Shown here: in pieces, positions 7,508 to 39,991 of the stretch
Layout: every line of letters starts with the position of its first letter
Position numbering within the stretch: the stretch's first letter is position 1
Source: Narcine bancroftii
Lineage: Eukaryota
DNA: 64,000 nucleotides
Assembly: GCF_036971445.1 (NCBI RefSeq)
Contig: NC_091469.1
Location: forward strand, 157,976,001 to 158,040,000
Direction: 5' to 3'
Position numbers and translations under genes: made by a program
Notes under the pieces: model-generated
Seen by the model: only the letters and a program-made list of their open reading frames with translations
Database searches by the model: none
Told to the model about the DNA's origin: nothing

Positions 7508-7510
7508 ATT

Positions 7511-14136: not shown

Positions 14137-14245
14137 AGCAACCACGGACTAAGAACACTTAACGTCCCTTTTTAAAGAGACTATTGGACTACAGTGACTG
14201 TGTATCAGTGGTTGACGGCATAATCAATTTATTGGCATCAAAACA

Positions 14246-14533
14246 ATGAAGGGAGCTGAGATGAATACTATGTGGGGACTATGGGTGATGTTGTTCCTAG
14301 CCCTTGAAGCATCTGGAGAAGGAAACAACTGTACAAAGTGTTTATGATCAGCCTGGGAGGCCCATAATGAACCGAAACAGTACTTTGCGGATTTGACTGA
14401 CGTTCCTGAACACTGTGTTGGGGCCCCCACTGAACTGAAGTGTGTTCATAATGGCCAAGTTTGTGAGGTTAAGTTTAACAAGGGGTCGGAGATGCCGGTC
14501 CTTGCAAAAACTCCTGAGGTCTTGGTCCCATAA
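14246..14533 (+). pseudogene. env: Truncated env remnant (signal peptide and Cys-rich SU N-terminus)
   Basis: MKGAEMNTMWGLWVMLFLALEASGEGNNCTKCL*SAWEAH...CVGAPTELKCVHNGQVC. Lies between pol and the PPT; internal TGA at 14345. Confidence 0.6.
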
Positions 14534-14567
14534 GTTAACTGGTGGTTGGTCTCATTTTCATGAGACC

Positions 14568-14578
14568 AAAAGGGGGAC
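14568..14578 (+). promoter_or_regulatory. Polypurine tract
   Basis: AAAAGGGGGAC immediately before the 3' LTR. Confidence 0.85.
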
Positions 14579-15390
14579 TGTTGGAATCTAGGGGTTAAAA
14601 CAGTATGAAATAAATGATTAATTAATGAGTGTATATTTACTGCATGGTTCAGGGAAAAAGGAATGTGATTAAGTGGCAATCAGAGTATGGAGCAAAGTTG
14701 GCTGAGCAAAATTGTCTGCTCCAAAATACAGGGAGAGGAAATGCATAAAACGATTTAGGAGGAATGCTCAAACTAAAGGAGGTGGTGAGTAGCACAGGAG
14801 ACACAGGCCAGATCAGAACAAAGAATGGCCTGTAAGAAACAAAGGGAATGGAAAACAAGTCTAGGAGGAAGATTAAGGCAGGAGGAGGTGTTAAAGAGAA
14901 CAGCAGAAATTGGCCGGACAAGAACAGAATGGTGATTAGAAATATCTGGGGATGAATTAATTTCTGATCAACACAACAGGATAGTCTGGCCTGGAGGATT
15001 AAGATGGGAGTGCTACACCCCAGATATCTGCAAAACAGGAGATGACTTGTGATAACCCTTATGCAAAAAGATCTAGCAAAGGAAGACAACTTTTGTTCTG
15101 TATGATAATGAAATCTAGCAAAGGAAGCCAACTTTTGTTCTGTATGATAAGGTTGACCTATATAAACTGAACCAACTGGACAATAGGGGTCAGTCTTGGG
15201 GAGTAGCTCACTGTGCAGGTGACCTATGAACTAATGAGTGACCCAGAGCTCTGTTAAGTTTTATTCTTGTGCTGTGTAATAAATTGACTGTTGAACCGAA
15301 TACCTTCTCCTATCACTTCATTCAAAGAACGCGCTGGACTCAGACTACACATAGACTAAATTAAGAGTAAGTTAAAGCCAGAGTCCGACA
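14579..15390 (+). repeat. 3' LTR (812 bp)
   Basis: By eye it differs from the 5' LTR at only about 3 sites. Confidence 0.97.
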
Positions 15391-15854
15391 GTTTTAATCC
15401 ATGTCTGTCTCTCCTCGTCTACTAATTTTGGCAGCCTTGCCCTTTACTCTAACAGGAAAGTACTGGCCTCAAACTCCCTCCAACTCACTTTTAAAAGCCT
15501 CCCACTAGCCTGACCATCTCCCCTCCCCATCTGTGAACAGATGCTCCCAGTTGACCTTTACTAGTTCCTGCCTGATGCCATCAGAATGAGACTTTCCTAA
15601 TTTAGGATGAATGTGTGCCAGTCCAATCCTGTTCCACAAGTACTTTAAAACATGGTCTCTGGTACCATGGAGACACATCACCTTCATTTCACAATAGGTT
15701 GACTGTGCCCCTTCTCTAGGGCCATCCAGGCATCGTTTTTGAGAACTTTCCTGAAGACATGTAACAAATTCTGCCCAGTCTATGCCTTTGTGCTATGACA
15801 GGCCCACTCAATATTAGAGAAAGTAAACCATTCTTCCAACCCCTATTTAAATGA

Positions 15855-19976: not shown

Positions 19977-20031
19977 ATGAACTCTCTTGCGGTTTATCTC
20001 TGCATGGTCTTGCTGTCAGTCGTCGTTCAGG
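19977..20031 (+). CDS. Siglec-15-like Ig receptor gene A, exon 1 (signal peptide)
   Basis: MNSLAVYLCMVLLSVVVQ(G); phase-1 donor G|GTTACAG is conserved in the paralog at 52289; alternative phase-1 donor at 20037. Confidence 0.7.
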
Positions 20032-20289
20032 GTTACAGTAGGTATTTTCTATTCACCTTGTTTTTGTCTCTTCTTCTCTCCTTTGGCTTGAATTTCCACC
20101 ACACTAATGGTGCTCCACCTCTTTGGACTTTGGTTAAGTCTGGCCTAGCCGAGATGGGGGTTGCTGGAGCTTTGAGTGCCTTTGAGAAGAAAGTTGGGGG
20201 AGGGGGTGGTAGGGGGGAGCAGGGTGTGTTAAGCCACATTCTTGAAATACTACACTCTTGGTGAAGGTGATCTGGTGGCAGAGCAGGTG

Positions 20290-20610
20290 GAGAAAAATGT
20301 ATACAGATTTTGAGCTTTGTAATAGAGGAAAAAGAGGGATGAGAACGAGCGAGAGAGGGAAGAAAGAGAAAGCAGGAGAAGAGTGAAAGTGAAAGCAAAA
20401 AAGAAAGAGAGAATGGATAGAGAAAACAAGGGAGAAAGTGAGAGAAAGATCTTGAAGGAGAAGATAGAAGAGAAAGAGGGTAAAAGAAAGAAAGAGTGAA
20501 CGAAAGGAAGAAAGTGAAAGTGAGAGAGAGAAAAGGAATGAAAGAGAGAGAAGAGAATGAGAGAGAGATTGAAAGGGAGAGAGAGAGAGAGAGAGAAACA
20601 ATAAACACAT
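20290..20610. repeat. GA-rich low-complexity tract in intron 1
   Basis: Almost purely purine. Confidence 0.9.
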
Positions 20611-20733
20611 GAGAAAAAGGTTGGCATGAGTAGGCGGTAATGTGGAGTTGGGGTTTGAATGCAGATGCTGGATTATTGAGTGAACCAGGAGAAGCTGGAG
20701 GACTCCATGGGTCAGTTAGTATCTATGGAGAGG

Positions 20734-22880
20734 ACATAAGAAATAGGAGCAGGAGTCGGCCATCAGGCCCATCGAGCCTCTCCGCCATTCAATAAGGTAA
20801 TGGCTGATCAGATTATTGACTCAACTCCACCTACCTGCCTTTTCCCCATAATCCCTTAATTCCATTTTTATGTAAAAATCTATCTAGCTGAATCTTAAAT
20901 ATGTTTAATGAAGTCGCCTCAACTGCTTCCCTGGGCAGAGAATTCCACAGATTCACAACTCTCTGGGAAAAACAGTTTTTCCTCATCTCCATCTTAAATC
21001 TACTCCCCTGAATATTAACACTCTGTCCCCTAGTTCTGGTCTCTTCTACCAGTGAAAACAATTTTCCTGCCTCTATCTTATCCCTTTCATAATTTTATAT
21101 GCTTCAATAAGATCTCCTCTCATTCAAGTGAGTATAATCCCAGGCGATTGAGTCTCTCCTCGTAGGTCAACTCCATCATCTCTGGGATCAACCTGGTGAA
21201 CCTCCTCTGGACTGCTTCCAAGGCCAGTATATTCTTCCTCAAGTCTGGAGACCAGAACTGCACACAGTTCTCCAAGTGCGGCCTCACCAGTACCTTGTAT
21301 GGTTGCAGCACGACCTCTCTCTCTGCTCTCAAATTTCATTCCTCTAGCGATGAAGGCCAACATTCCATTTGCCTTCTTAATAACTTGTTGCACCTGCAAC
21401 CCAACCTTTTGTGATTCATGCACAAGCCCTCCCAAGTCCTTCTGCTCTACAGCAGGCTGCAGTTTCTCCTAAATAATAATCTGCTCTTCTATTTTTCCTG
21501 CCAAAGTGGATGACCTCGCATTTACTAATGTTGTACTCCATCTGCCAGACCTTTGCTCATTCACCTAACTTAACTATATCATTCTGCAGTCTCTCCACAT
21601 CCTCTGTACTTTTCCACTCAGTTTAGTATCATCCACAAATTTGGCTTCACTACTCTCTGTCCCCTCTTCCAAATCATCAATATAAATGGTGAACAGCTGT
21701 GGGCCCAGCACCAACCCCTGTTGTACCCCACTTACCCCCATTTATCCCGACTCTCTGCCTTCTGTCAGTTAACCAATCCTCAATCCATGCCAATCTACTT
21801 CCCCTGACTCCATTCATCTGTATCTTATTTGATACATCTCTTGTGCGGCACCTTATCAAATGCCTTCTGGAAATTCAAATATACAACATCAACCTGTTCC
21901 CCTCTATCTACCACACCCACAATATCCCCAAAGAACTCCAGCAAGCTTGTTAAACAAGACCTGCCCTTTCTCAATCCATGCTGCATCTGCCTGATGGAAC
22001 CCTTTCATTCTAAATGTCTCGCTATTATCCTTTATGACACCTTCAAACATTTTCCCGTCCTCAGCCGTTAAGCTAAATGGCCGATAGTTACCCGTCTTCT
22101 GCCTACATCCCTTTTTCAAAAGTGGAGTGACATTTGCTGTTTTCCAATCTGCCGGGACCTGCCCAGAATCCAGAGAATTTTAGAAATGACTACCAACGCA
22201 TTGACTATATCTCCGCCATTTCCTTCTGTACCCTGGGATGCCTCCCATCAGGACCAGGGGATTTGTCTGCTTTCAGTCCCATTAGTTTGCTCATCACTAT
22301 CTCTTTTGTAACAATTATTTTATCGAGGCCCTCACCTCCCTTTGCCTCCCTACCACCACTCTTTGCCATGCTGGACATGTCTTCCACTGTGAAGAGTGAC
22401 ACAATATATCTGTTCAATGCCTCGGTCATTTCCCCATTACTCAATATTAATGTCCCTTTCTCATCTTCCAAGGGATCCATGTTGACTCAGGCCACCCTCT
22501 TCCGTTTTATATATTTATAAAATGTTTTGCTATCTGTTTTTATATTTGGTGCTAATTTCCCTTCATGATCCTTCCTTTTCCTTATTTCCCGTTTAGTTCT
22601 CCTTTGTTGCCTTTTAAAGCTTTCCCAGTCCTTCAGTTCCCCACTACTCTTGGCTACTTTGTACACATGAGCTTTTAATTTTATACTTTCCTTTATTTCC
22701 TTAGTTAACCAAGGCTGACTCTTCCCTCTCTTACTGCCCTTATTTTTAAATGGGAATATATTTTTGTTGAGTACCTTGAAAAATCTCTTTGAAAGTCTTC
22801 CACTGTTCTGCCAACTGGCCTCTGCTCCCAGTCCACGCTGACCAATTCCTCCCTCATCCTCTCCCCTGTTCAACCATCAT
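20734..22880 (-). mobile_element. CR1 LINE, 5'-truncated and decayed ORF2
   Basis: KSPGPDG, GNYRP, LVRPHLENCVQFWSP and TRGQ...FSQRVVNLWNSLP. Confidence 0.9.
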
Positions 22881-23419
22881 TTATACAATTAACTCTTCCT
22901 ACTAACGTTATTGGTAAGTCCTTCCATCTATTTAAATAATTTTTAATTTTAGCCAATAATGGAAAATAATTCAACGCAAATAAATTATCTTAATTATTGT
23001 CAATAAAATAATATCCAAATATTTAATTCAGTCAGACCATCTAAACTTCACAATCTTCCTACATAACGAAAAATCCATCTCCGTCAGAGCTTGACGATGT
23101 AGATGCCTTATCTGCGTTTGGTCGCATTCAGTGCAGCAGATTAGATTGGATGGAGTTGCTATGGATGGAAGTGATGAGGGGGGTGAAAGGGGAGACATTG
23201 GGGCACATTTTGAATCTTGTACATTTGCAGTGGGAAGTGACAAAGGGGGTGATCCGTTGTGCAGGGAGGGACAAATGGATCAATGAAGAGGCTAATCCTT
23301 ATGGGATTAGATAGAGATGCCAACTAGTAGTGGGATCACGTTGACATTGGCTGAAGCATCCAAGAGTGGCTTATCAGATGGGAAAGTGAAGACATAGAGG
23401 GCTCTCTTTGTCCTTAACA

Positions 23420-24460
23420 CCATAGGACATAGGAGAAGAATTAGCCCATTCAGCCCATTGAGTCTGCCCCACCGTTCCATCATGGCAAATTTACTCTACT
23501 TTTTGACCCATTCTCATGCCTTCTCCCCTGATACACCATCAATAATCACAAAAGTCTGAAGCGATGAAACTATCAGGGTTTTATTAACTATAGACTGGAA
23601 CAGCCATCAGCCTCATTGACTGATCGAGAGAGAGTGGAATGGGGAGCATGCAAGGGGCTGTGGGTAGGATCGGTCTCGGGAGGCGTGTCCAGCTGGCAGC
23701 AGCCAATCATAGCGTAACAGTGGTTTACCTCATCTCATAACCCTTGATTCCCTTCCTGATCAAAAATATCTACCTTCGCTTTAATATTCCCAATGACTCG
23801 GCATCCACAGCCATTCCTGGCAACAAATTCCTCAAATTCTCTATCCTCCAAGTAAAGAAATTCTTCCCCATCTCTGTTCTAAAAGGAAGTATTTGTATTC
23901 TATGGCTCTGCCCTCTGGTCGCAGGCTCCCCCATCACTGGAAACATCCTCTCCACAACCACTTTATCATCAGTATTCAATAGGTTTTAATGAGATTCCCC
24001 CCCCCCCCCCCATTCTTCTAAATTCCAGCAAGTACAATTCCAACACCTTCAAACTCTTCTGAAGTGAAAACCCTTTCACTCTAGGGATCATCCTTGTAAA
24101 CCTCCTCTGGACCCTCTCCAAATCCAACACATCCTTCTTTAGATCTGGAGCCCAACAGCATGGTTGGCACTACGCTGTTACAGCACCAGTGATCCGGACC
24201 TGGGTACGAATCCCACGCTGTCTGCAAGGAGTTGGTACGTTCTCCCTGTACCTGCGTGGGTTTTCCCCAGAGGGCTCCGGTTTCCTCCCACCCTTCAAAA
24301 TCGTACCGGGGGTGTAATTGGGCGGCATGGACTCGTGGGCCAAAAGGGCCTGTTACTGTGCTGTAGGTCTAAATTTTTAAAACTGCTCACAATACTCCAA
24401 GTGCGGTCTGACCAATGCCTTAACATCATATCCTTGCTTTGATATTCTATTCCTCTCAAA
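23420..24460 (-). mobile_element. CR1 3' fragment interrupted by a ~200-bp TG..CA element (23529-23732) and a V-SINE (24156-24380, +)
   Basis: CR1 C-terminal ORF 23770..23979; SINE core similar to the other copies. Confidence 0.7.
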
Positions 24461-26034
24461 ATAAATGCGAGCATTCCATTTGCTTTCCTTACCAGTGCAG
24501 CACAGAAAAAGGGCTTTCAGCCCTTTTAGTCTGTGCCAAACTATTCTTCTGTCTAGTTCCACTGATTCTACATGCAAAGTTGGCCTTTAGTGAGTCCGCG
24601 CACCAGATTTTATTTAGTGGGAGTGCGGGCGAGATGGGCCAAACAGTCTCTTGCTCCTCATTCATGGCCTGTTTGTTCTCACTGCCATAGCGAGGGTTGC
24701 AAGGAGACATGTCAGAGTCACACAGCGTAGAGATCTGGCCCCACATCCCACACCGACCAAAATGTCCCAGCTGCACTGGTCCCTCCTGCCTGCTTTTGGC
24801 TCAGATCCCTCTAAACTCATCCTATCCATGTATCCGTTTGAATGTTTTTGCAACGCTACAATAGCAGCTCCTCTGGCAGCCCATTCTAGACACTCACCAC
24901 CCTCTGTGTGAAAAAAATTGCCCCTCAGCTACCTGTTAAATTTTCCACCCCTGATCTTTAACCGATGTCCTCTGGTCACTGATGTCTCTGGAGGAGGGGG
25001 CGATGGTTGAACATTCTAGGTTGCTCGTTAGCAGCAAATAAGTTCTCAGAATTATCTCTGAGTCACGGACTATCAATCAATCTATTTGACTCACAACTTG
25101 ATATACCTGATGGAGGTGCCTGAAATTCTGGTGTGGACCGAGGGAGGCTGTTGCCATTGGTGGAAGGGATAAGAGCTGAGACTGTAGGATAAAGGTTAAT
25201 TGGCCAAGGGGCATTACCCCATCAGGCGCAGGTTGGGCTGTAACATGGGATCAGGGCTGGGAGTGGGAGTATTCAAAAGGGCCTGGATACTTTTACGAAA
25301 GCAAGGAATTTTTTGGGCGGTGGGAGAGTGCTCTGGCATGGAGCCTGAATGGGCTAAATGGCCTTCCTGGCTGTAACCAGCCCATGACCCGGAGAGAGTT
25401 CCAACAGCTTGTTTGCTCGTGAATGCCGAGAATGTCCAACCATTTTCCTGCAGAAAACGGAGCAGCAAAACTATAAAAACCATTAACACCTGGAGAACAG
25501 ACAATATTGAAAAACATCCCAAAGCACCTGATTGAATCCCAGCCGGTAACACTCCCATGTATCCATTGTTGTACAAATGCCTGAGCCCCTCCCGCTTCAG
25601 ACCTTAACCACTCCCCTGCAAACCAGACAAAGGATGAAACTTGCGACAGTGACATCACTAGGGTTGGTGTCACCCAGCGGGGTAACTCGTGGTGTCACCC
25701 TCCACCCTCCCACGATGGACCACCTCCCGTACCAGACCATACTGACGTATGTACTAACGCTCCTCGTAAATTGTACTTCCCATAGATCGCTGAATGTACC
25801 GGCGATCACTGTGAGATAAACAACTTGCAAAATTAAAATTACACCTTTAAATTACAATATCATTCTACTTCATTCTCAAGAAAGTTATTGATTCAGGTTC
25901 ACAAATACTAATTACCACAAAATTGTAGCTAAAATGACAGAATATTTGACAAAAGCAGCGACTATAACAACACCAGCGGCAATGAAAACAACAGCGCGCA
26001 GATGAAACCACGCGATTCGAAGCATTGTGATACT

Positions 26035-26282
26035 TTTAAAATTTAGACACACGGTAGGGTAACAGGCCATTTCGGCCTACGAGGCCGTGCTGCCCAATTA
26101 CACCCCATTAACCTACAACATTTCGAACGGTGGGAGGAAACCGGAGCCCCCGGGGAAAACCCACGCAGACACGGGGAGAACGTACAAACTCCTTACAGAC
26201 AGCGCGGGATTCGAAACCTGGTCCCGATCGCTGGCGCTGTAAGGGCATTGCGCTAATAGCTACGCTAACTGTGGCACCCACA
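26035..26282 (-). mobile_element. V-SINE (HE1-like), well preserved
   Basis: CpG-rich inverted copy with tRNA head and V-domain core. Confidence 0.82.
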
Positions 26283-26659
26283 ATGTCATAATCCCAAATT
26301 CTAAGCTTGACTCGGTGCACCTGAGAACATTTCCACCATGTTCAACCCGTTGACTTCTGACATTACATGCAATTTTCACATCATCTTTTCCCTCCTCCAC
26401 TCCTCTATCTGCTCTGGCACCCTAGTTCTCATCCCCCTGCTAACCTACTTTAAACTCCCCAGAGCAGCACAAGCAAGCCTTCCTGCAAGGATATCAGTTC
26501 TCCTCCAGTTCAGATGCAAACTGTCCCATCGGCACAGGTCCCACCTTCCCTGGGAGAGAGGCCAATACCTGAAGCCCTCCCCCATGCACCAGGTTTTTAG
26601 CTGTGGGTTAAGCTGCATCATCCTCCTATCTCTGACCTCAAATCTTTCCCTCTCTGCAG

Positions 26660-27043
26660 ATGTTCTGTTTCCCAATGGGACGATGTCTGCGGCTGATAAG
26701 GTGTTTGCCGTGGAAGGAGGCTTTGCCGTGTTGCCGTGTACTTTTACCCACAACTGCATTAATCAGACCATCACCGGTTCAGTGATGTGGTACCGGAGGA
26801 AATTCTGGGATCAAAACCTTGTGTTTGACTGTACATTTCATGGCCCCAGCCTCTCCTGGTGTGATAAAGAGGCGCAAGAGGCCGGAGGTGGTCGCTTCAG
26901 ATTCGTGGGGGACCTCAGCCAGAGAGATGCCTCCATCATGGTGGAGGATCTGCGGCAGGAAGATAACGCCAAATATCGTTGCGGACTGGAGCTCAACGTT
27001 GGAAAGTTTCAATCTGAGTTAATAACGCACTTGTTTGTAAGAG
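26660..27043 (+). CDS. Gene A exon 2, V-set Ig domain (Siglec-15-like)
   Basis: ctctctgcag| acceptor and G|gtgagg donor; 384 bp, phase 1-1. AVLPCTFTH...W...VFDC..C...GRFRFVGD...DASI...L..ED...YRC resembles the Siglec-15 V domain. Confidence 0.9.
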
Positions 27044-27214
27044 GTGAGGAATACTGTTCAAGTTTGCAACTACTCCAGAGGTCACAGAGCATACGTCTCC
27101 CCTGTCCAACGCTGATAAATAAATGTATACCAGTCCTGTGTCTCGTCCGGATGGAGATGTTTAATTACAATTTCGCGATACAGCACGGTAACAGGCCACG
27201 CCGTGCAAATTCAT

Positions 27215-29090
27215 ACAACTATATAAACATATACAGCACAGAAACAGGCCAGTTTGGCCCTATTAGTCCGTGCCAAACATCTTCTCCCACCAAGTCCCAC
27301 TGAGCTGCTTTTGATCCATAATCCTCCACACCCCTCCCATCCATATTCCTATCCAACCTATCCTTGAACATTAACATTGATCTCGCTTCTACCACCACTG
27401 CTGGAAGTTTATTCCATACTCCCTCTGTGCGAAGAAATTCCCTTAAACATTTCCCCTTTTAGTTTCAGTCCATGCCCTTTTGTTTGAACTTCCCCCCACT
27501 CTCAGTGGAAAAAGCCTGTCCACATTCACTCTATCTGTCCCCCTTATAATTTTGAATACCTCTATCAAATCACCCCTCAACCTTCTACACTCCAGGGAAT
27601 CAAGTCTCGGCCTGTAACTTAAACCCTGAAACCCCGGCCACATTCTCATAAACCTCCTCTGCACTCTCTCTATACTGTTTATATCCTTCCTGTAATTTGG
27701 AGACCAAAACTGCACACAATATTCCAAATTTGGCCTCACCGATGCCTTCTACAATTTCAACATAACATCCCAACTCCCGTGTTTTATACTCCGATTTATG
27801 AAAGTCATCATACTAAATGCCTTCTTCACCACCCTGTCCACATGTGATTCAACTTTCAGAGAATTATGTACCATGACTCCTTAATCCCTTTGTTCCACCA
27901 TTTAACGTGTATGCCCTATTTTGATTAGTCCTACCAAAATGTAGCAACTCCATCTTTCAACCCACTCTTCTAACTGTCCAATATCACCCTCTAAGCTTTG
28001 ATAATCTTCCTCACTGTCCACAACACCACCAACCTTTGTATCATCTGCAAATTTACTAATCCAATTTGCCACCCTATCATCTAGATCGTTAATATATATG
28101 ACAAACAACAATGGACCCAGTACCGATCCATGAGACACTCCACTCGACAGCGGCCTCCAATTTGACAAACAATTTTCCACCACTACTCTCTGGCATCTCC
28201 CATCCAACCACTGTTGAATCCATTTCACTATTTCATCATTAATACCTAATGCTTCCACCTTCCTTCCTAACCTCTATGGGGAACCTTATCAAAAGCCTTC
28301 CTGAAGTCCAAATAGACAACATCCTCATCAACCTTTTTAGTAACTTCCTCGAAAAACTCTAAAAGATTTGTTAGACATGATCTGCCATGTACAAAACCAT
28401 GCTGTCTACTCCAAATCAATTCCTGTCTTTCCCAATAGTTATATATACCATCTCTAAGAACACTTTCCATTAATTTACACACCACCAATGTCAGACTTAT
28501 AGGCTTATAATTACTAGGTCTACTTTTAGATCTTTTTTTGAACAGCGGAACAACATGAGCTACCCTCCAGTCCTCCGGGACTTTCCCCGTGGCCAGTGAC
28601 ATTTTAAATATTTCTGTCAACGTCCCCACTATTTGTTCACCAACCTTCCTCAGGGTCCTAGGGACTATTTTGTCAGGACCTGAAGATTATCCACCTTGAT
28701 CTTTTTCAATATAGCCAACACTACCTCCTCATTAATCCTTATATTATCCATGAGCTCCCTACCATATTTCTTCACTTCATCTGGCTCAATAATCTTTTCC
28801 TTAGTGAATACTGACTTCTCATGGAGCCAATTTCCCCCCGCTCCCCCCATCTTCAAGGGGTCCAATTTTATCACTCACTGTTCTTTAACTTTTAATGTAC
28901 ATATAGAAACCCTTTGGATTTATTTTTAATAAAGCAGTTTCATTTCTCCTTTTAGCCTTTCTAATTTCTTCTTAAGATATTTTTTATAAACACTCCTTAT
29001 ATTCCTCAAGCAATTCATCTATTCCCTACTGTTTATGCCTGTTGTACACATTCCTCTTCCTCCGAACCAATTTCCCAATATCTTTTGAAA
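27215..29090 (-). mobile_element. CR1 LINE, decayed RT region
   Basis: QHGF..GRSCLTNL, DFRKAFDKVPH, GSVLGPLLF, FADD and RPNLEYCVQFWSP. Confidence 0.9.
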
Positions 29091-29430
29091 ACCTACAATT
29101 AACCTACAATCCCCTTGAATGTTTTAAAGGGTGGGGGAAACTGGAGCACCCAGGGAAAACCCACGCAGACACGGGGAGAATGTGCAAACTCCTTACAGAC
29201 AGCACAGAGTCAAACCTATGTCAGTGCCGTCTGTCTCAAATGATGAACAGAAGCAGGATCTGGGGATGCCCAGATTCACTGTTGCTCCCTCTCTCCCTCT
29301 GCAGGGCAGTACTGAGGGAACACCACAGTGTCAGAAGTGCCCCATCCCCATGCAGTGTTTTGGAACCATCCTTCGATCTGTCCTCTCCCCTGCACCCATC
29401 CTGACCCACCTTCCCTTGTCCTTCACTGTC

Positions 29431-29576
29431 NNNNNNNNNNNNNNNNNNNNNNNNNNNNNNNNNNNNNNNNNNNNNNNNNNNNNNNNNNNNNNNNNNNNNN
29501 NNNNNNNNNNNNNNNNNNNNNNNNNNNNNNNNNNNNNNNNNNNNNNNNNNNNNNNNNNNNNNNNNNNNNNNNNNNN
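29431..29576. other. Assembly gap (146 N)
   Basis: Run of N. Confidence 1.
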
Positions 29577-29596
29577 TAGAATCAAGTCAATCCACT

Positions 29597-31352
29597 CATA
29601 ACATAACATAACATAACAATTACAGCACGGAAACAGGCCATTAGGCCCTTCTAGTCCGCACCGAACCAAACACCCCTTTCTAGTCCCACCTCCCTGCACA
29701 ATGCCCATAACCCTCCATCTTCTTCTCATCCATATACCTGTCCAACCTTTTCTTAAATAATACAATTGACTCCGCCGCCACTATTTCTCCCGGAAGCTCA
29801 TTCCACACGGCTACCACTCTCTGAGTAAAGAAGTTCCCCCTCATGTTACCTCTAAACCTCTGCCCCTTAATTCTTAACTCATGTCCTCTTGTTTTAATCT
29901 TTCCCCCTCTTAACGGAAATAGTCTATCCACATCCACTCTGTCTATCCCTTTCATAATCTTAAATACTTCTATCAAATCCCCTCTCAACCTTCTACGCTC
30001 CAAAGAATAAAGACCTAATCTGTCCAATCTCTCCCTGTACTCTAGATGCTTAAACCCAGGTAACATTCTGGTAAACCTTCTCTGCACTCTCTCTACTCTG
30101 TTTATATCCTTCCTATAATTAGGCGACCAGAACTGCACACAGAACTCCAAATTAGGCCGCACCAACGTCTTATACAATCTCAACATCACCTCCCAACTCC
30201 TATATTCCATGCAATGATTGATAAAGGCCAGCATACTAAAAGCCTTCTTCACCACTCTATTCACGTGAGTTTCTACCTTCAGGGAACGATGTACCGTTAC
30301 TCCTAAATCTTTCTGCTCTTCTGTATTCATCAATGCTCTCCCATTTACCACGTATGTCCTATTCTGATTCTTCTTACCAAAATGAAGCACCTCACACTTA
30401 TCAGCATTAAATTCCATCTGCCATTTTTCAGCCCACTTTTCTAAGCAGCCCAAATCCCTCTGCAATCCTTGAAAACCTTCTTCATTATCCACTATTCCAC
30501 CTATCTTAGTATCGTCTGCATATTTACTAATCCAATTCACCACCCCATCATCTAGATCATTAATGTATATAACGAACAACAATGGGCCCAATACAGATCC
30601 TTGAGGCACACCACTGGTCACCGGCCTCCAACCTGACAGACAATTATCCACTACCACTCTCTGGCCTCTCCCTTTCAGCCAATGTTCAATCCATTTGACT
30701 ATCTTAAAATTTATACCTAAAGACTGCACCTTCCTAACTAACCTACCATGTGGTACCTTATCGAAGGCCTTACTGAAGTCCATATAGACAACATCCACTG
30801 CGCTACCCTCATCCACATTCCTAGTCACCTCTTCAAAAAATTCAATCAGATTGGTCAAACATGACCTTCCTCCCACAAATCCATGTTGAGTGCTCCTGAT
30901 CAGACCCTGTCTATCCAGATGTTTATAAGTACTATCTCTAAGAATTTTCTCCATTAATTTACCTACCACAGACGTCAAACTTACAGGCCGATAGTTGCCA
31001 GGCTTCCTCCTTGAACCCTTTTTAAATAACGGAACCACATGCACAATGCGCCAATCCTCCAGCACTATCCCCATATCTAATGACATTTGGAAAATTACCG
31101 CCAGAGCCTCTGCTATTTCCTCCCTCACTTCTCTCAATGTCCTGGGGAAGATCCCGTCTGGTCCCGGAGACTTATCCACCTTTATATTCTTCAAAAGCTT
31201 TAAAACTACACCTTTTGTAATCTCTATATTCCCCATATTTACCCAATTTGCTTTTTTTTATCTCACATCTCCCAGTATCCTTCTCCTTAGTGAATACCGA
31301 AGAAAAGAAACTGTTCAATATCTCCCCCATTTCTCTAGGCTCCACACAAAAA
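29597..31352 (-). mobile_element. Young 5'-truncated CR1 LINE with an uninterrupted 518-aa RT/C-terminal frame (29680..31236)
   Basis: KSPGPDG, YRPVSLT, DFSKAFD, GVPQGSVLGP and YADD; (TTATG)n 3' tail. Confidence 0.95.
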
Positions 31353-31387
31353 TCACTGATGCATTCATGTGTCTGTTCTTCCCTCAG

Positions 31388-31756
31388 CTCCTGACCACAG
31401 GGTATCAGTGGTGACTGGAGCAGAGGGAGCATCAGCCACCTTACCCTGTATCTTCTCACAGACTCCATTTTACACCGTACACATGGTCACCTGGATGACG
31501 AAAGATCCCTACCGACACGTTGTTACATTCAGACATCAATCTAATGGATTGTGGGCAGTGGAAAGAGGTGCAACTCGGTACGAGCTCATCGGGGACCCTA
31601 AACAGGGAAATGCCTCAACCCAGATAAACCAGCTGAGTGTGCAAGACAGTCATATTTACCTGTGTTTAGTGGAGTTTCATATGCCAATCTACCTTCAGAA
31701 AAAGCAGCCATTTTCCCAAATATCCCAGCGTGATGTCCGGCTGCAGGTCCTATCCG
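31388..31756 (+). CDS. Gene A exon 3, second V-set Ig domain
   Basis: cttccctcag| acceptor and G|gtaaga donor; 369 bp, phase 1-1. ATLPCIF..VTW..RYELIGDPKQGNAS..I..L...DS..YLCLVEF..VRLQV. Confidence 0.9.
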
Positions 31757-31896
31757 GTAAGAACCTGTTACCACATTCTGGGGCGCACAGTGAAGTGGTA
31801 AAGGAGAGAGGGGAACAGAAGCAGGGAAGCCCATCTCTCAGCTGGGTCAGTCTCACCTCTGAGACATCGTTCCATAGCACTGTTCCAATTATGCTT

Positions 31897-32672
31897 GGAA
31901 GAGTGGGCTGAAAGTTGGCAGATGGAGTTTAATGTAGATAAGTGTGAGGTGCTTCATTTTGGGAGGAATAACCAAAACAGGACGTATGCAGTGAAGGGGA
32001 AGGGATTGAGGAATGCAGAGGAACAGAGGAATAACAGTTCAGCGTTCCTTGAAGGTGGATTCCCATGTAGATAGGGTGGTGAAGAAGGCTTTTGGAATGC
32101 AGGCCTTTATAAATCATAGCATAGAATATAGGAGCTGGGAGGTGATGTTGAGACTGTTCAAGGTATTGGTGAGGCCAAGTTTGGAGTATTGTGTGCAATT
32201 CTGGTCTCCAAATTATAGGAAGGATATAAATAAGGTGGAGAGGGTGCAGAGAAGATTTAGTAAAATGTTGCCTGGATTGCAGTATCTAGAATACGGAGAA
32301 AGATTGAGTCGACTGGGTCTTTATTTATTGGAACGTAGAAGGTTGAAGGGGGATCTGATAGAGGTATTTAAAATTATGAAGGGATTGGAACGAGGGGTCA
32401 TAAGTTAAGGGTTAGGGGGCATAACTTTAGGAGTAATATGAGAGGGGGCTTCTTCACTCAGAGAGGGGTGGCTGAGTGGAATAACCTTCCGGAAGAGGTG
32501 GTTGCAGCAGGGTCAATTCTATCATTTAAGAGGAGGTCAGATGAGTATATGGATGTGAGGGGGTTGGAGGGTCATGGGCAGGGAGCAGGTAGGTGAACTA
32601 GTGGAGTTTCACTTAAATCGGTGTGGACTAGAGATGGCCTGTTTCCGTACTGTAAATGCTATATGGTTATAT
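31897..32672 (+). mobile_element. CR1 3' fragment
   Basis: ORF 32013..32408 contains LVRPSLEYCVQFWSP...RRRLKGDLIEVFKI. Confidence 0.88.
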
Positions 32673-32926
32673 GATGTCAAACCAAAGTGCAGACTATCCC
32701 CTCAAGTGCTGATCAAGCCTCTGGAGAATCCTTCAGCATGTTGTACCGTTTAATTAAGAGGGAGCACCAGATCATTGGATAAGCATGCGTATGACCCATA
32801 GGTGGATGGTCTGGAGGATTACCAGTGGTTACAGAGAGTCACTGGAATGTCACAGAACTGGACTGAGAGTGGTGGGTGCCCGGAATGCATTGCCAGGGGT
32901 GGTGGAGGACACTGTTAAAATAGGAT

Positions 32927-35900
32927 TGCGGCGTGCGCGCTATCACGAAGTGTGGAAGGAAGACACACACACGAGGAGTCGAAGTCGAAGACTGATCTAT
33001 TGCACTGGCAGCTCTGCTTTTATATGGGGCCCCTGGCTCTGACATCAGGGCCCAGCGTCTTCGGAGTCCCAGCCTCGGGTTGGCCACCATTCCCGCCAGA
33101 GGTCCCCATCTTCCCACCGTGTGGAGGTCATCTGGGATGACAGTCGGTGTCACCCCCTGGTCCGCCCAGTTGCCATGTTTGTCGGCCATTTTGTGGGCTG
33201 GTTTGCATCTCCATGCACTGGCCGCTGCATGACCTCCCCTCCCTAGAACCAATGACCAGCCCATTGTCCGTAGCCTTCAGTGGCCTGCCCCTGTGTCATG
33301 GGGTGGACTGGAGACCATCTTGTTACAGTCCAGATATGCTACCATCAGGTAGTTGGCGGTAAAAGTTTCCTCCTTACTGCCGATGTCAAGGTCAAAGGTG
33401 GAACCATTGTTTCTAGGGCCCCTCGTAGGGTCATTGTAAGGGTGGTCTGTATGTGCCTCTCCTCACGAACACATTCTGGCAAGTCTTTAGGTCCTTCGGG
33501 ACGCTATGTTTGGACTGGCTGTATGGTGGGGATTGCATGGGACCAACAACCCCAGCTTTCGCTGCAGGCTCTTGAGGGTTATCGTGGGGTCTTCTGGGCA
33601 TTTATTGGGGGCCAGGAACTTCCCGGGGATGATTAAAGGTGCACCGTAGACCATCTCTTCCGCTCCACCAACCCGTTGGCCTGAGGGTGATATGCCATGG
33701 TGTGGTGGAGCTGTGATGCTCAGAGGTGAAGTATGCACACTGCCCCCCCCCCACCCCCGTCCAAGGTTAGGTGCTCCAGGACCCCGAAACAAGACACCCA
33801 TGTGTCAACGAATGCCCTGATGCAGGTTTCTGTAGTGGTATCAGCCCGCGGGCCCTCCTCCGGCCACCTTGTAGAGTTGTCCACCATGGTTAAGAGGTCT
33901 CTTGCCCCATGGGAAACTGGCAACGGACCCACTATGACGATGTGTATATAGCTGAACCCACGCTGTGCTGGCTCAAAAGTCTGTGTGGGCGCTCTCGTGT
34001 CAACCTGCACTTTGGAGGACTGACAGTTCAGGCAGATTTTGACCCAACTGGCTGGCCTGTTTATGGAGCCCATGCCAGACAAACTTGTTGGCCACCATTT
34101 TAACCATGGCACAGATGGCAGGGCGCACCAGGTTGGAACAATGGAGCAGGGGCTGCTGGTGGAAACGTCGCATAGCAGCGTCAGGTTACCTGGACTGACA
34201 GAGTCGTCCTCCTCCCTGAGACCGGAGACAGTTGATCTGTTGTGAGGATCTCAGGGTCTTGCTGCTGCGCTTTGGTGAGGGCCACGTAATCCACCCCATG
34301 TATTGATTCGATCACAGGGGGAGTGACAGAGTGTTGGCTATCATGTTGCTTTCCCAGCGATATGCTGAATATCTGGGGTAAACTTGGACACGTAGGACAA
34401 GTGTCTCCATTGTTGGGCCGACCAAGGGTCCGATACCTTATGGAAGGTGAAAGTCAGCGGTTTGTGATCAGTGAACACCCTGAATTCCCGGCCTTCCAAA
34501 AAGTAATGGAAATGTCTTTCCGCCAGATACAGCGCTAATAGCTCTCGGTCAAAAGCACCGTATTTGAACTTGGGGATGGGGGGAGGGGCCTGCTGAAAAA
34601 GGCCAGGGGTTACCACTGGCAGTTAGGGCAATAGGTGCCTCCGGTCTCCGGTGGACCAGGAGTGTGGCAGATGCCAGCATGTCTTTGGCATTCTGGAACG
34701 CCCTGGAAGACTCATTGTCCCAAGTAATGTCATTTGACTTGTCTGACATTAGTGCAAAGAGGAGGCGCATAATGCTTGCCGCTGCCAGCATGAATCTGTG
34801 GTAAAAGTTTATTATACTGGCAAATTCCTGCAGCTCTTTTACTGTGCGTGGCTTAGTGAAATGCTGGACCGACTCGACCTTCTCGGGCAGGGTTGTAGCC
34901 CTGTGTCTGTTAATCCTGTGCCTCAAGAAATTAATGGTGTCCAGACTGAACTGGCATTTTGCGGGGATGGCGTTCAACCCAAACTCACTCAAACGGGTGC
35001 ACTGTTGTCTCTGGTGGGCAGTCTGGTCCTTGCAGCTGTGGCTGGCAATGAGGATATCGTCCAAATAAATGAATGCAAATGGGAGGTACCGGCCCACTGT
35101 TTGCTGAAAAGTTAGACCAAAGGAAATGCAGAGAAATTCAAGGGGGTTATGATTACAGTCTTGGGGACATCCTGGCAGTGAACTGGGATTTAGTGGTACC
35201 CCCGGATGAGGTCCACCTTGGAGAACACCTGTGCCCCATGGAGGTTGGGGGAAAAGTCTTGGATGTGAGGCACAGGTTATCTGTTGGGCACGGTGATCTT
35301 GTTGAGGCAGCTGTTGTCACCGCATGGTCTCCAACTCCCAGCTGATTTGGACACTATGTGGAGGGGGTGCCCAGGAACTGTCGGAATGCCGCACAATCCC
35401 CAGCTCCTCCATTTTTTTAAATACCTCCTTCATCAGGCTGAACTTTTTGAGAGGGAGTTGGCATGCCTTGGCGTGGAGTGGGGCCTATCCCCTCCCCTCG
35501 GTCAACCTCCCCTGGTACCTTACCCTGTGCTTTGGCTCAGTCGTGGAGAACTGTGGGGCTTCTATTGAGGGGAGCTCCACCAGGATGTGGGCGAAAATTC
35601 ATTGGCTGAGAGGGTTATAGAGTCCAGGTTGGGGGGGGGGGGGGTGCGCGGGAAGCTCGGCTTCCCCCAGGGGCAGAGTCAGAAAGGTTCTGGTGTGCAC
35701 CAACACAGTCGCCAGAGGTTGACAAGCAGGCAGTGGGCCCAAAGGAAGTTGCATGGGGGAAGGTCCATTTAAAGTGGCCGTTGCCGAACTGAAGGGGGAT
35801 GGTGTGAGTACGAAAAGTCAAAATGGAGGAGCTGTTGGCTGTCCTCAGTGCTGGGCCCTGCATGTTGCTGCGGGTGTCGAGGGCTGCAGGGGTTTGGATG

Positions 35901-37007
35901 CTTATCTTGGCGCCCGTGTCAACCAGGAAATGCCTGGCCAACAAGGAGTCCTAGACATAGTGGAGACTATCACGTGGTCCAACCGCCGCACCCATCAATG
36001 ACGGATGGCCAGGGCAATTCCCGAAAGCCTGCAGGGTGGGTGGCATTGACGGGCCTTCGCACCCCATCGCTGATGATAGTAGCAAAGCTGTTCCGGGGTG
36101 TTCATTTGCCTTTCCCCTGGCCTTGATCCCATTGGGAGTTGTTCATAGGGCTTGCTGATGTGGTGTACAGCAGCACTGGTGCTCTTCTTTGCTCTCTGAA
36201 GCATGTCCACCTGGGCAGCGACCTCCCTGAGGGGCGCTGAAATTCTCGTCTTTGAGCAAGAGCCGTATATCTTCGGGCAGCTGGTCCAGAAAGATCTGCT
36301 CGAAGAGCAGGTAAGGTTTGTGGCCCTCTGTTAGAGCAAGCTTCTCGCTCATTGAGGCAGATGGGGCCCTGTCCCCCAATCTGTCCATATACAGCAATCG
36401 GGTGGCGTAGGAACGCCCGGAAGTGCGGATTAGTAGCTCTTTGAGGACTGCATATTTGCCTTGCTCCGGAGGCTGCCATAGGAAATCTACAACCCTTGCT
36501 GCTGTGTCCTGATCGAGGGCATCACGACATAGAAGTAACAGGTGTTAGCGGCGGCGATGTGGCAAAGCTTGAACTGAGCCTTGGCCTGCTCGAACCACAC
36601 GTAATGGCTGTGACACCCAGAATGTTGGAAGCCTGAGAGAGACTGAGTGTTTGGTCATTGGTTCCACTTGATCCGTCATCTTCGGGTCCAACTGCCAGTT
36701 GGACCTGTCTGGGTCACCAATGTAGCATGCAAAGTGCGGAAAGAAGACACACACGAGGAGTTGAAGTCAAAGATTGATTTATTGAACTTGGCAGCTCTGT
36801 TTATGAGCCCCTGGTGCTGATGTCAGGGTCCCATGTCATCGGAGCACTGACCTCAGGTTGGCTGGCATTCCTGCCAGTGTTCCCCATCTTCCCATTGTGT
36901 GGAAGTCACATGGGACGACGGCTGGTGTCACCTTTGTGTCCACGCGGTCGCTGCGTCCGTCGGCCATTTTGTGGGCCAGTCCGTGTCTCTGTGCGCGTGC
37001 CACTACA
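32927..37007 (-). mobile_element. Decayed Ty3/Gypsy LTR retrotransposon (LTRs 32927-33229 and 36721-37007)
   Basis: Diverged ~290-bp LTRs; PPT beside 33230; PBS TGGTGACCC(A)GAC beside 36720. Fragments of gag (LPTFW..P), protease (FLVDTGA), RT (YLDDILIAS), RNase H (FDRELLA..TDHKPL) and integrase (VGPLP..TRWPE). Imperfect TSD GGAT/GGCT. Confidence 0.9.
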
Positions 37008-37147
37008 GGCTCATTTAAAAGACTCTCCATAGGTACATTGATGTAAGAAAAATAGAGGGTTACTGGTGTGAGTGAGGGAAGGGCTAGATTGTGTGACAGG
37101 TTTATATAGGTCGGCAAAATGTCATGGGCTGAAGGGTCTGTTATATC

Positions 37148-37397
37148 AAATTTAAACATACAGCACAGTAACAGGCCATTTTGCTCCATGAGCCCATGCC
37201 ACCCTATTTACACCCGATTAATGTACACCCCCGTTACGTTTTGAAGGGTGGGAGGAAACCTGAGTTCCCAGGGAAAACCCATGCAGACACGGAGAAAGTT
37301 CAAACTCTTTACAGACGGTGCGGGATTCCAACCCCGGTCCCGATCGCTGGCGCTGTAACTAGCATTGCGCTAACCACTACCTCAACCCTTGCTGCTC
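37148..37397 (-). mobile_element. V-SINE (HE1-like)
   Basis: Same core as 26035-26282. Confidence 0.78.
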
Positions 37398-38823
37398 CTA
37401 TTCTATTAAAAACCCAATGCTGGAGAAATTCAGCAGGTCAGAGTACTTTATATAGCAGAGATACATAATCAACGTTTTGGGCTTGAGCCCCTTCTTCAAG
37501 GCACCTTGTTTCACTTCCATTATATTCCATGTTCTATGATTGAACAAATCACATTGATCAAGGCAGAGTGGTTGATCTATGGATTTCAGGGGGGTATTTG
37601 CTTAGGTTCCCCATGCAATGTTAATTCAGAAAGTAAGGAATCACAGAATCCAAGGGGGCCTTCCTTTGTGGATACTGAATTGGCTTGCCCAGAGATGGCA
37701 GAGGGTGGTTGTAGATGGTCCCTATCCTGCGTGAAGAATCAGTGACCAGTGGTATTCGGCAGGGATCTATTCTGGGACCCCTCGTCTTTGCAATGGCCCA
37801 GGTGAGAGGGAGTGGAAGGGAGGGTTAGTAAGTATGAAAAAATGGGTGATATTGTGGATAGTCTGGAGGGTTGCCAGTGGTTATACAGAGGGCCATTGGT
37901 AGGACGCAGAGCTGGACTGTGGTGGCAGGTGAATTTTAGCTTGGAAAAGTGTGACGTAGTTCGCTTCAGTTGGTCAAATCTGAAGGCAGAATACCAGGTT
38001 AACGGGAGGGCTCTGAGCAGTGTGGAGGAAGTGAGAGATCCTGGGGCCCATGTCCACAGGACACTCAAAGCTGCTGCACAGGTTGAGAGTGCTGTTAAGA
38101 AGTCGTATGGTGTGCTGGCCTTCATTAGAATACCTGACTGTAAAAGCCACCTATTCTACCCCAATGCGGCTGTCGGGTGGCCACCTGAAAGTGGAGAACC
38201 CGGACAGGAGGAGCACTTACCTAATCCTCCTCCTGTAGGTATGTTCTTCAGCTCTGAGAATCTCCTGTTGCACCTGAAAGCAGCACCAGGCAAAGCGGCT
38301 AGCTTTGGTGCCTGACAGTCCCCTGGCATGGGGTGGCACTGAGCTGGGGTGGCTCAGTCCCGTAGTCCCGCGACGGGGGGCTGTCAGGCAGCGAGCAGGG
38401 GGCTGTCGGCAGCGGGGAGGGGGGCTGTCAGGCAGCGGGGAGGCAAGCTGTCAGGCGGCTGCCCCTGCCCTGACTCAGGAGCCGGTGTTTGCTCTGCTTC
38501 GGACCTTTCAGGCGGCAGAACACCGCCTTCAGCGCTGCCACCTGAACATCCCTTCGCAGACACCCGCAGCCGTTCTGGAGCCGTATTCTCCAGGCGATTC
38601 CACCTGAAAGCAGCTATTGACTGTGGGATTGAATTCAAGACTCGAGTTAATGTTGCAGCTGTACAAGACCCCATTCGAAATATTGTGTTCCATTCTGGTC
38701 ATTGAATGCACAGCAGTATGAAAGTTTTCTGATGACATTACTACAGGATTAACTTTGTTTTTCCTGTCATAGTCTTCATTTCTTCACCTGAGTCAGGGTT
38801 GACGTCTCTCCTTGTCTCTGCAG

Positions 38824-38917
38824 TCACCGTGCTTCTTCCCGTTGTGATTTTGTGTATTCCACTTGGATTGAAAGCTTTTGGCCTTTTTGTCATGTGCATC
38901 GTTTTCTTCAGTAACAG
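38824..38917 (+). CDS. Gene A exon 4, transmembrane helix with central Lys
   Basis: ttgtctctgcag| acceptor and AG|gtatgt donor, phase 1-2. VTVLLPVVILCIPLGLKAFGLFVMCIVFFSN; Lys codon at 38871-38873. Confidence 0.82.
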
Positions 38918-39882
38918 GTATGTAATTTCACTGAAAACACTTACTTTTACGTGAGTCAATTTAAGGAGGGACCTTAGTGTGTGTTTGGAAGTTATTCAAC
39001 TTTTACAGCACCCCGGATGAACCAACAACCTTTCCCCTCAAGCGGCAATGTCACGATCAGATTGGTGATTGAAGACATTGTGTAAAAAATAACTTGGGCT
39101 TTCAACATTATAACTTGGATCTATGGAACCTATTGGTTGTTGAGACCAAGGCAACACAGTGATGTCACGGCGAGGGTGACTTTTCCTGCACCCAGCACAT
39201 AGAATTTACCTGGTCAGCACAAACCGTGTGCTCGATGTATATGCAGTTTCAGTCAGGTGGTTCCAAGCAGAGCAGGAGCCCAGACAATGTCGCCTCTCCC
39301 CATCCCACTGACAACAAGACTGGTTGGAAAGCCCTCGCCTCTACTCCATCTGGGACCATCCTCGTCAGTCCAGGCCCACATTCCTGGGTCCTGATTAAAT
39401 CTCTCCCACCACTCCCTTCACTGCAATCCGCTTGATCCGTCCAAGGATATTAACAATCAAATGTGGTTTGATTGAATTCTATTTCCATAATCATTGTTGA
39501 TCATCAGTTTCCCGTTCAATTTCCAATCTCAGTTTGTTCCCGTTTCAGCATGTTGGATGCAGACCAAGATCCCTGCGTTCCTCAACCCTCCCCTGGACTC
39601 TGCTATTCTTTGTGTAGGACCATCACTGGTTAGTCCTTTTACTTAACTAGAACGAACTTCCTTCCTGCCTGTCCTTGCCACCATCAATATTCACGACATT
39701 TGCGAAGCTACACATTTTATGCGAATGTGGGCCCTTGTGAATGTCAAATGTTGACATTGAATGAAGAGTTCTAGTGAAGCCTCGGTCCAAGTCCCTTTGC
39801 AGTTCGAAGTCAACGGAGATGCCAGGTGTGGTTATTGTCTAGTGACCAAGGGTCGTTTTAACTGGCATTGTTCTGTCCGCAG

Positions 39883-39991
39883 AAAGAGGCGGGGCAGATC
39901 CATCGCAGGAGGCGGAGGAGAGCAGATTTCTAACAACAGTGTGTACCCTCCCCATCCCAAAACCACGCGCCCATCTGAACAGCACTTTTGA
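39883..39991 (+). CDS. Gene A exon 5, short cytoplasmic tail and stop
   Basis: ttttaac branch point and ttctgtccgcag| acceptor, phase 2. Gives RKRRGRSIAGGGGEQISNNSVYPPHPKTTRPSEQHF*, with a basic stop-transfer cluster directly after the TM. Confidence 0.72.

What the first reader, a model, noticed from the sequence alone, without database searches (positions are those of the whole stretch)
19977..39991. Siglec-15-like activating receptor with a V-V ectodomain and no sialic-acid-binding arginine
Seen: five exons splice in compatible phases (1,1,1,2) to a 1011-nt CDS, with signal, V, V, TM and a 36-aa tail. Domain 1 has the Siglec-15 pattern, including the extra Cys pair (VFDC...WC). The TM has LGLKAF, like the LGFKAL Lys that couples Siglec-15 to DAP12. 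Canonical Siglec-15 is V+C2 and needs the Arg in YFCRVEF; here both domains lack it (YRCGLEL and YLCLVEF). Domain 1 has a fifth, probably unpaired Cys (HNCIN). The tail has one Tyr (SVYPPH) and no canonical ITIM/ITSM. Inference: a lineage-specific DAP12/FcRgamma-type activating receptor with a non-sialic ligand, possibly a disulfide-linked dimer.
Basis: partly seen in the sequence, partly recalled or inferred. Interest (0 to 1): 0.75.

Follow-up and report, generated by a model that had tools for sequence, protein, structure and literature searches.

The report
Arginine-less ray Siglec-15-like activating receptor
This spliced electric-ray gene encodes a two-domain relative of the sugar-sensing immune receptor Siglec-15 that has lost two residues Siglec-15 uses to grip sialic acid, so it likely switches immune cells on in response to some other ligand, and in sharks and rays the arginine loss falls mostly on the predicted "on" members of a predicted on/off receptor family.

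Summary
The gene is real and spliced; one junction needs correcting (exon 1 ends at 20037; 1017 nt, 338 aa, identical to RefSeq XP_069798484, Narcine bancroftii, auto-named JAML-like). Assembled contigs of 4 runs join exon 1 to 2 and 2 to 3 directly, so no hidden Arg-bearing exon; 2 runs also show a form skipping V2. The V-V layout is not lineage-specific: it is the standard layout of a shark, ray and chimaera family with Lys-transmembrane and ITIM-type members, clustered here over about 2.5 Mb. V2 never has the arginine (Leu in 69 of 71). The gene-specific change is in V1, whose best structural match is Siglec-15 (Z 18.4): Arg143-equivalent to Gly, Trp44-equivalent to Gly (Trp in all 46 other covered members), plus a new N-glycan site there. 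Across the family the arginine is kept in 18 of 18 ITIM-type but 22 of 33 Lys-type V1 domains; the tree-corrected test is underpowered. DAP12 coupling, ligand and dimer are untested. This scan noted the family before in skates and sharks; nine literature searches found no description. Verdict: new variant of paired Siglec-like receptors, moderate interest.

The parts
19977..20037 (+). Exon 1, coding part: signal peptide (61 nt, phase 1)
   Evidence: Loose ends of exon-2 contigs in runs X1, X2, X4 end in this exon at 20037; matches P0001
26660..27043 (+). Exon 2: V1, Siglec-15-like V-set domain
   Evidence: Covered end to end by contigs in 4 of 4 runs; Pfam V-set; model's best match 7zoz
26674..26682 (+). 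N26-G27-T28: Gly in place of the A-strand Trp (TGG in paralogs, GGG here) and a new N-glycosylation sequon
   Evidence: DNA alignment with 5 paralog exons; Trp in 46 of 46 other family V1 rows that cover the column
26755..26757 (+). Cys53, fifth Cys of V1, in the BC loop, two residues before the N55 sequon
   Evidence: Only BC-loop Cys among 66 V1 rows; partner not shown
26983..26985 (+). Gly129 (GGA) at the position of the essential Arg143 of Siglec-15
   Evidence: Arg in 51 of 66 family V1 rows
31388..31756 (+). Exon 3: V2, family-typical second V-set domain, alternatively skipped
   Evidence: Joined to exon 2 in X1, X3 and one X2 contig; skipped in X4 and one X2 contig; Pfam V-set
38824..38917 (+). 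Exon 4: transmembrane helix with Lys288 (codon 38871-38873)
   Evidence: Hydropathy; joined to exon 2 in X4; motif alignment with Siglec-15
39549..39628 (+). Alternative exon of RefSeq isoform X1 (shifts exon 5 to another frame, 391 aa, no ITIM)
   Evidence: Reproduces P0007 exactly; not tested in reads here
39883..39991 (+). Exon 5, coding part: short cytoplasmic tail with one Tyr and stop
   Evidence: matches P0001
52289..52349 (+). Leader exon of the next, broken paralog (its V1, V2 and Lys-TM exons lie beyond the window)
   Evidence: tblastn, translation; V1 L009 has a TGA and a 1-nt insertion

Best explanation
The gene encodes a spliced type I membrane protein with two V domains and a transmembrane lysine; it is likely the activating half of a chondrichthyan paired-receptor family built on a Siglec-15-like tip domain, and is predicted not to bind sialic acid. 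Shown: exon structure, splicing, the V2-skipping form, the family, the cluster with Lys-TM and ITIM-type paralogs, loss of the Arg143- and Trp44-equivalent residues. Inferred from Siglec-15 biochemistry: V1 is the ligand-binding tip, V2 a dispensable stalk; Lys288 would pair with the Asp of an ITAM adaptor (DAP12 by analogy) and signal through Syk; with Arg and Trp gone and an N-glycan predicted at N26 beside the old pocket, host sialoglycans would no longer trigger it. Most likely role (inferred): recognition of a non-sialic, probably microbial or parasite, ligand, opposite ITIM-type paralogs 1.3-1.9 Mb away that keep the Arg and would read host sialic acid as 'self'.
For: Splicing in 4 of 4 runs of one study. 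V1 model pLDDT 84, best match Siglec-15 7zoz by Foldseek (TM 0.78) and VIA-align (Z 18.4, rmsd 2.2, 120 aligned; next 16.1). R143A abolishes binding and W44 contacts the Neu5Ac N-acetyl in human Siglec-15 (PMC10264397, passages); TM Lys is needed for DAP12 binding (PMC7226832, PMC6941304, passages). V1 keeps 28 well-conserved columns and departs at 5, among them these two. Of 70 family representatives 35 have the Lys-TM, 21 Tyr-motif tails, 14 neither; Lys and ITIM types intermix within lineages on the tree, as in Siglec-5/14 (PMC6288428, passages). Arg kept in 18 of 18 ITIM-type and 22 of 33 Lys-type V1 (Fisher p 0.005, rows not independent; 5 of 70 had no residue there); at least 7 separate changes on a 55-row tree. 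In this genome 3 of 3 Lys-TM V-V units and the 1 Lys-TM V-V-C2 unit lack the Arg; the 6 other V-V units keep it in the distal V1. In the sister V-V-C2 subfamily 9 of 10 Lys-TM V1 lack it, 5 of 6 others keep it. Pairwise dN/dS against paralogs 0.29-0.59 (15 pairs).
Against: No binding or signalling data. DAP12/DAP10 was not found in this genome (weak searches); only FcRgamma- and CD3zeta-type TM exons were. Independent-pairs test of Arg loss against signalling type is not significant (never the opposite way, but 4-6 pairs only). Two thirds of Lys-type members keep the Arg. Neutral-TM relatives without Arg exist in the V-V-C2 subfamily (P0249, P0086), and great-ape Siglec-5 and -14 lost it together. 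Private changes in V1 give pN/pS 0.64, no lower than the broken neighbour (0.52). Four Arg-bearing inhibitory-side V1 exons in this genome lack one or both core Cys (L005-L008), so they may not be working sialic-acid sensors. Tissue of expression unknown.
Confidence: 0.55

Rival explanations
1. An activating paralog in decay: still transcribed, but its binding face is drifting and it has no ligand, as for null-prone Siglec-14/16 or human Siglec-XII.
For: Private loss of several near-invariant residues (W27G, P52N, N105D, R129G), a lone BC-loop Cys, V1 private pN/pS 0.64 (34 nonsynonymous, 15 synonymous), a broken Lys-TM paralog next door, long terminal branch.
Against: Intact frame over 338 codons, both disulfide pairs and 28 conserved columns kept, V2 private pN/pS 0.40, pairwise dN/dS under 0.6 in all 15 pairs, spliced contigs in 4 of 4 runs.
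Confidence: 0.25
2. It still binds an acidic glycan, by another site such as the basic-aromatic YRRKFW stretch after strand C.
For: The sequence shows three basic residues next to the C-C' loop; G-strand aromatic F137 is kept. Inference only.
Against: In Siglec-15 the single R143A change abolishes sialic-acid-dependent binding; here the Trp is gone too.
Confidence: 0.08
3. It belongs to a described non-Siglec family with the same layout (skate MDIR, TIM, PILR, or JAML as RefSeq labels it).
For: RefSeq name 'junctional adhesion molecule-like'; V2 scores about equally against Siglec-15-like and PILR-like/lamprey profiles (51.6, 51.2) and hits TIM structures first; deep nodes of the V-domain tree are unresolved.
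Against: V1 carries the C'-C'' Cys pair described as unique to Siglec-15 and matches 7zoz best by profile and fold; V1 scores 80 bits against Siglec-15-like, 25 against TIM-like profiles; no MDIR-named protein among 76 hits; MDIRs are described as CD300/TREM/pIgR-like (PMC3031540, passage).
Confidence: 0.05

Closest known systems
Siglec-15 (human, PDB 7zoz; bony-vertebrate SIGLEC15)
   Same: V1 fold and sequence pattern (LPCTFTH, B-F disulfide, C'-C'' Cys pair), TM Lys in LG[LF]K, short tail without ITIM.
   Different: Second domain is V, not C2; Arg143 and Trp44 equivalents are Gly; multigene cluster with ITIM-type paralogs; the mammalian neighbours ATP5F1A and SLC14A (recalled) map to C8, the cluster to C1.
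Paired CD33-related Siglecs (Siglec-5/14, 11/16) and Arg-mutant Siglec-XII, ape Siglec-V/XIV
   Same: Similar ectodomains on opposite signalling modules in one cluster; lineage-wise mixing of activating and inhibitory copies; Arg loss is known among Siglecs.
   Different: Built on a Siglec-15-type V domain (F-strand Cys where CD33 has Phe), no C2 domains; Arg loss here is skewed to Lys-TM members, whereas apes lost it in both partners.
Multi-V 'Siglec-15-like' database records of lungfish, salamanders, gar and the chondrichthyan V-V-C2 subfamily
   Same: Tandem Siglec-15-like V domains with Lys-TM or Tyr-motif tails (P0110, P0082, P0102, P0112, P0106, P0105).
   Different: Separate clades on the V-domain tree; several keep a C2 domain.
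Skate MDIRs (Cannon et al. 2006; paper not held, known here only from a passage in PMC3031540)
   Same: Chondrichthyan multigene family of activating and inhibitory V-domain receptors.
   Different: Described as CD300/TREM/pIgR-like; none among the family's hits; sequences not compared directly.

Membership tests
Siglec-15 | N-terminal V-set domain with B-F disulfide and C'-C'' Cys pair | tested here: met
   C47/C128 and C78/C88 align with C64/C142 and C95/C104; best fold match 7zoz
Siglec-15 | Essential Arg on strand F (R143) | tested here: not met
   Gly129
Siglec-15 | A-strand Trp contacting sialic acid (W44) | tested here: not met
   Gly27
Siglec-15 | Ectodomain of one V-set plus one C2-set domain | tested here: not met
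   V-V, or V alone when exon 3 is skipped; no C2 exon
Siglec-15 | Transmembrane Lys | tested here: met
   Lys288 in LGLKA, same motif as mammalian and bird-like records
Siglec-15 | Association with DAP12 | not testable with these tools
   No DAP12 sequence found in the genome by two weak searches
Siglec-15 | Binding of sialylated glycans | not testable with these tools
   Predicted absent from residue loss only
Siglec-15 | Orthology: clade with bony-vertebrate Siglec-15 and conserved neighbours | tested here: inconclusive
   Family V1 is its own clade (100/99); its link to bony Siglec-15 is unresolved. A mammalian Siglec-15 query finds its best matches only in the C1 cluster (24 of 26 matches), but ATP5F1A and SLC14A lie on C8; flanking genes were not identified
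Paired Siglec receptors (Siglec-5/14 type) | Clustered genes with similar ectodomains and opposite TM/tail modules | tested here: met
   35 Lys-TM and 21 Tyr-motif members among 70; both kinds in this genome's cluster
Paired Siglec receptors (Siglec-5/14 type) | Concerted evolution of activating and inhibitory ectodomains | tested here: inconclusive
   Signalling type changes at least 10 times on the ectodomain tree, but this gene has no close inhibitory twin (V1 about 50-55% identical to paralogs); conversion tracts not mapped
CD33-related Siglecs | V domain without the F-strand Cys, followed by C2 domains | tested here: not met
   F-strand Cys present where CD33 has Phe; no C2
MDIR (skate) | Sequence similarity to MDIR/CD300-type V domains | tested here: inconclusive
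   No MDIR-named hit among 76; MDIR sequences and paper not available
JAML (RefSeq label) | Closest sequence and structure match is JAML | tested here: not met
   JAML 34.3 bits against 72.8 for Siglec-15

The most novel reading that the evidence does not exclude
Cartilaginous fishes built their own paired-Siglec system from a Siglec-15-like domain, and it shows a rule: inhibitory members keep sialic-acid ('self') sensing while activating members repeatedly discard it and take new ligands; the electric ray is the end point, with all four Lys-TM genes found in its cluster Arg-less, and this gene has closed the old pocket with two substitutions and a glycan.
Probability: 0.33. Interest if true: 0.75.

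Novelty: new variant of a known kind. Interest (0 to 1): 0.5.

Why it matters
Siglec-15 is treated as a single, conserved, Arg-dependent receptor. A chondrichthyan-wide family with activating and inhibitory forms would be an independent replicate of paired-Siglec evolution. Its at least seven Arg changes give natural variants to test a standing idea: that activating partners escape host sialic acid and are redirected to pathogens. This gene is a clean test case: expressed, intact, with Arg-bearing paralogs in the same genome as controls. As a single gene it is one divergent member of that family, not a new kind of system.

Tried and rejected
Whole-protein fold on an 8-row alignment gave pLDDT 38 and was not used. 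A complex prediction for two copies of V1 gave no verdict (score 0.05); it says nothing about a dimer. No run on record as RNA was listed; the four holders are guessed RNA, judged here by their spliced ends. DAP10 family search and a degenerate DAP12-like TM pattern (motif recalled) found nothing credible: 8 matches, none in an exon-like frame; not evidence of absence. Synteny: an F-BAR search gave no match near the cluster; 200 kb upstream held a repeat array and no recognisable gene. The idea that this gene and the Rhinoraja YRCGLEL protein share one Arg-to-Gly event was rejected: they are not sisters. An Arg-bearing exon hidden in intron 2 was rejected by direct exon 2-3 joins and by no third Ig exon in six frames. 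The second SVYPPH match at 51731 lies in a repeat fragment and is chance. The MDIR paper was not held; the one supplementary file of the elephant shark paper had no hit for DAP12, TYROBP, SIGLEC or MDIR. CD33-related, CD300 and TREM sequences with names were not available for the tree; only unnamed look-alikes served as outgroups.
Full report
1. Observation. One junction is off: contigs from coded runs X1, X2 and X4 continue from exon 2 into exon 1 ending at 20037, not 20031. The corrected frame is 1017 nt, 338 aa, identical to P0001 = XP_069798484.1, Narcine bancroftii, auto-named 'junctional adhesion molecule-like isoform X2'. Contigs of all 4 runs (one study; guessed RNA) cover 26660-27043 exactly and stop at both splice sites. 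X1 and X3 go on into exon 3; X4 goes on into exon 4; the two X2 contigs give a mixed end in which 30 of 30 letters come from the exon 3 or exon 4 start. So no extra exon lies between V1 and V2, and a V2-skipping form (215 aa, in frame) exists. RefSeq has a further isoform with exon 39549-39628. The exon 3-4 and 4-5 joins were not seen in reads here.

2. What it is. Both domains are V-set. A profile of 8 relatives finds Siglec-15 (7zoz) first among solved structures, 72.8 bits, in V1; CD33 scores 39, JAML 34. The V1 model (80-row alignment, pLDDT 84) matches 7zoz first by Foldseek (TM 0.78) and by VIA-align (Z 18.4, rmsd 2.2 over 120 residues; sialoadhesin 16.1); the model was built with Siglec-15 rows in its alignment, so this is not fully independent. 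V1 has the C'-C'' Cys pair that the structure paper calls unique to Siglec-15 (PMC10264397, passages). V2 lacks that pair, and its origin is open: 62.5 bits against the second V of a sister chondrichthyan subfamily, about 51 against Siglec-15-like and PILR-like/lamprey profiles, 41 against TIM-like. On a 93-row V-domain tree V1 and V2 each fall in a well supported chondrichthyan clade (100/99, 99/99); deeper links are unresolved.

3. The family. The homolog search gave 76 proteins: 70 from 15 sharks and rays, then coelacanth and mammalian Siglec-15 records. Heptranchias and a Callorhinchus V2-TM(Lys) record extend it to chimaeras. V-V is therefore the family's layout, not a novelty of this gene. 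Of the 70, 35 have a Lys-TM with a short tail, 21 a neutral TM with TYA[ST][IL]/IYAAV tails, 14 neither (mostly partial models). In the genome the relatives sit on C1 between about 157.36 and 159.93 Mb: nine V-V units and three V-V-C2 units by my count. Multi-V Siglec-15-like records also exist in lungfish, salamanders and gar.

4. The arginine. V2 has Leu at the Arg column in 69 of 71 domains (2 gaps), so its lack of Arg is ancestral. In V1 Arg is the norm (51 of 66 rows). This gene has Gly (GGA), and also Gly for the A-strand Trp that is present in all 46 other rows covering the column; human W44 contacts the N-acetyl of Neu5Ac and R143A abolishes binding. The neighbouring change makes a sequon, N26-G-T; two other members have a sequon at that position while keeping the Trp. 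The G-strand aromatic is kept. Across the family Arg is kept in 18 of 18 ITIM-type and 22 of 33 Lys-type V1 (Fisher p 0.005; 11 of 14 unclassified; 5 rows had no residue there). The rows are related: a 55-row tree needs at least 7 changes, none on an ITIM-type tip, but the independent-pairs test has only 4-6 pairs and is not significant. In the V-V-C2 subfamily 9 of 10 Lys-TM V1 lack Arg (probably one orthologous gene, so one event) and 5 of 6 others keep it; P0249 and P0086 are neutral-TM exceptions. In this genome all 4 Lys-TM units found lack it, one of them broken, and the 6 other V-V units keep it in the distal V1, though 4 of those lack a core Cys.

5. Mechanism. Shown: structure, splicing, residue losses, family and cluster. 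Inferred: Lys288 sits in the same motif as Siglec-15 Lys274, which binds the Asp of DAP12 (PMC6941304, PMC7226832, passages), so the protein would activate through an ITAM adaptor; V2 can be skipped and would be a stalk; V1 would not bind sialic acid and would see another ligand, as a counter to ITIM paralogs, by analogy with Siglec-5/14 'counter-traps' (PMC6288428, passages). FcRgamma- and CD3zeta-type TM exons are in the genome; DAP12 was not found by weak searches. The main rival is decay: V1 private pN/pS is 0.64, similar to the broken neighbour's 0.52, while V2 is 0.40 and all 15 pairwise dN/dS values are 0.29-0.59. Cys53 is unique among 66 rows and has no partner in V2; a dimer is possible, though the N55 sequon two residues away could shield it (inference).

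6. Known or new. It fails the Siglec-15 membership tests for Arg, Trp and the C2 domain, so it is Siglec-15-like, not Siglec-15; orthology is unresolved. Nine searches of the held literature (listings only) showed no paper on this family; passages of PMC8455134 and PMC13262535 mention Siglecs only generally. Subscription papers, including the MDIR paper and the 2007 Siglec-15 paper, were not seen, and their supplements may bear on this. Earlier unreviewed notes of this scan describe the same family in skate and shark genomes; they are not independent support.

7. Verdict. A real, expressed, Arg-less Lys-TM member of an apparently undescribed chondrichthyan paired Siglec-15-like family. New variant of a known kind; interest 0.5.

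Noticed in passing
window 6697-15394 (+), and 4917-5740: Retrovirus-like element: terminal repeats 6697-7511 and 14579-15394 are 99.4% identical, enclosing gag- and pol-like ORFs in several pieces (recognised by eye, no family search); a third, inverted copy of the repeat at 4917-5740 (97%).
   Followed up: no
window about 32950-36980 (intron 3): Decayed LTR-retrotransposon-like remnant on the minus strand with 76% alike flanking repeats; several LINE fragments fill the other introns.
   Followed up: no
window 52289-52349; L009, L013, L063: Next paralog: leader in the window, V1 with a TGA and a 1-nt insertion, V2 71-76% identical to this gene's V2, Lys-TM exon; its V1 also lacks the Arg. dS to this gene is 0.66 for V1 but 0.29 for V2, a hint of exon exchange.
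   Followed up: partly
window 31404 (exon 3): Runs X1 and X3 read C where the genome has T, Val154 to Ala; likely an allele.
   Followed up: no
L005, L006, L007, L008: Four V1 exons on the inhibitory side of the cluster lack the B-strand Cys, the F-strand Cys or both while keeping the Arg.
   Followed up: no
L042-L044; P0105, P0237-P0247: A V-V-C2 gene with a near-invariant Lys-TM (LIPLIKFLLL) is conserved across rays and sharks and lacks the Arg in 9 of 10 records: an old Arg-less receptor, perhaps more interesting than this gene.
   Followed up: partly
L096-L105 (G000:C1:157.15-157.25 Mb): At least 100 kb that is wholly repetitive lies just upstream of the cluster, possibly a satellite array.
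   Followed up: no
P0082, P0110, P0102, P0112, P0106: Multi-V Siglec-15-like records in lungfish (one with seven V domains), salamanders (V-V with Tyr motifs) and gar suggest wider, undescribed expansions.
   Followed up: partly
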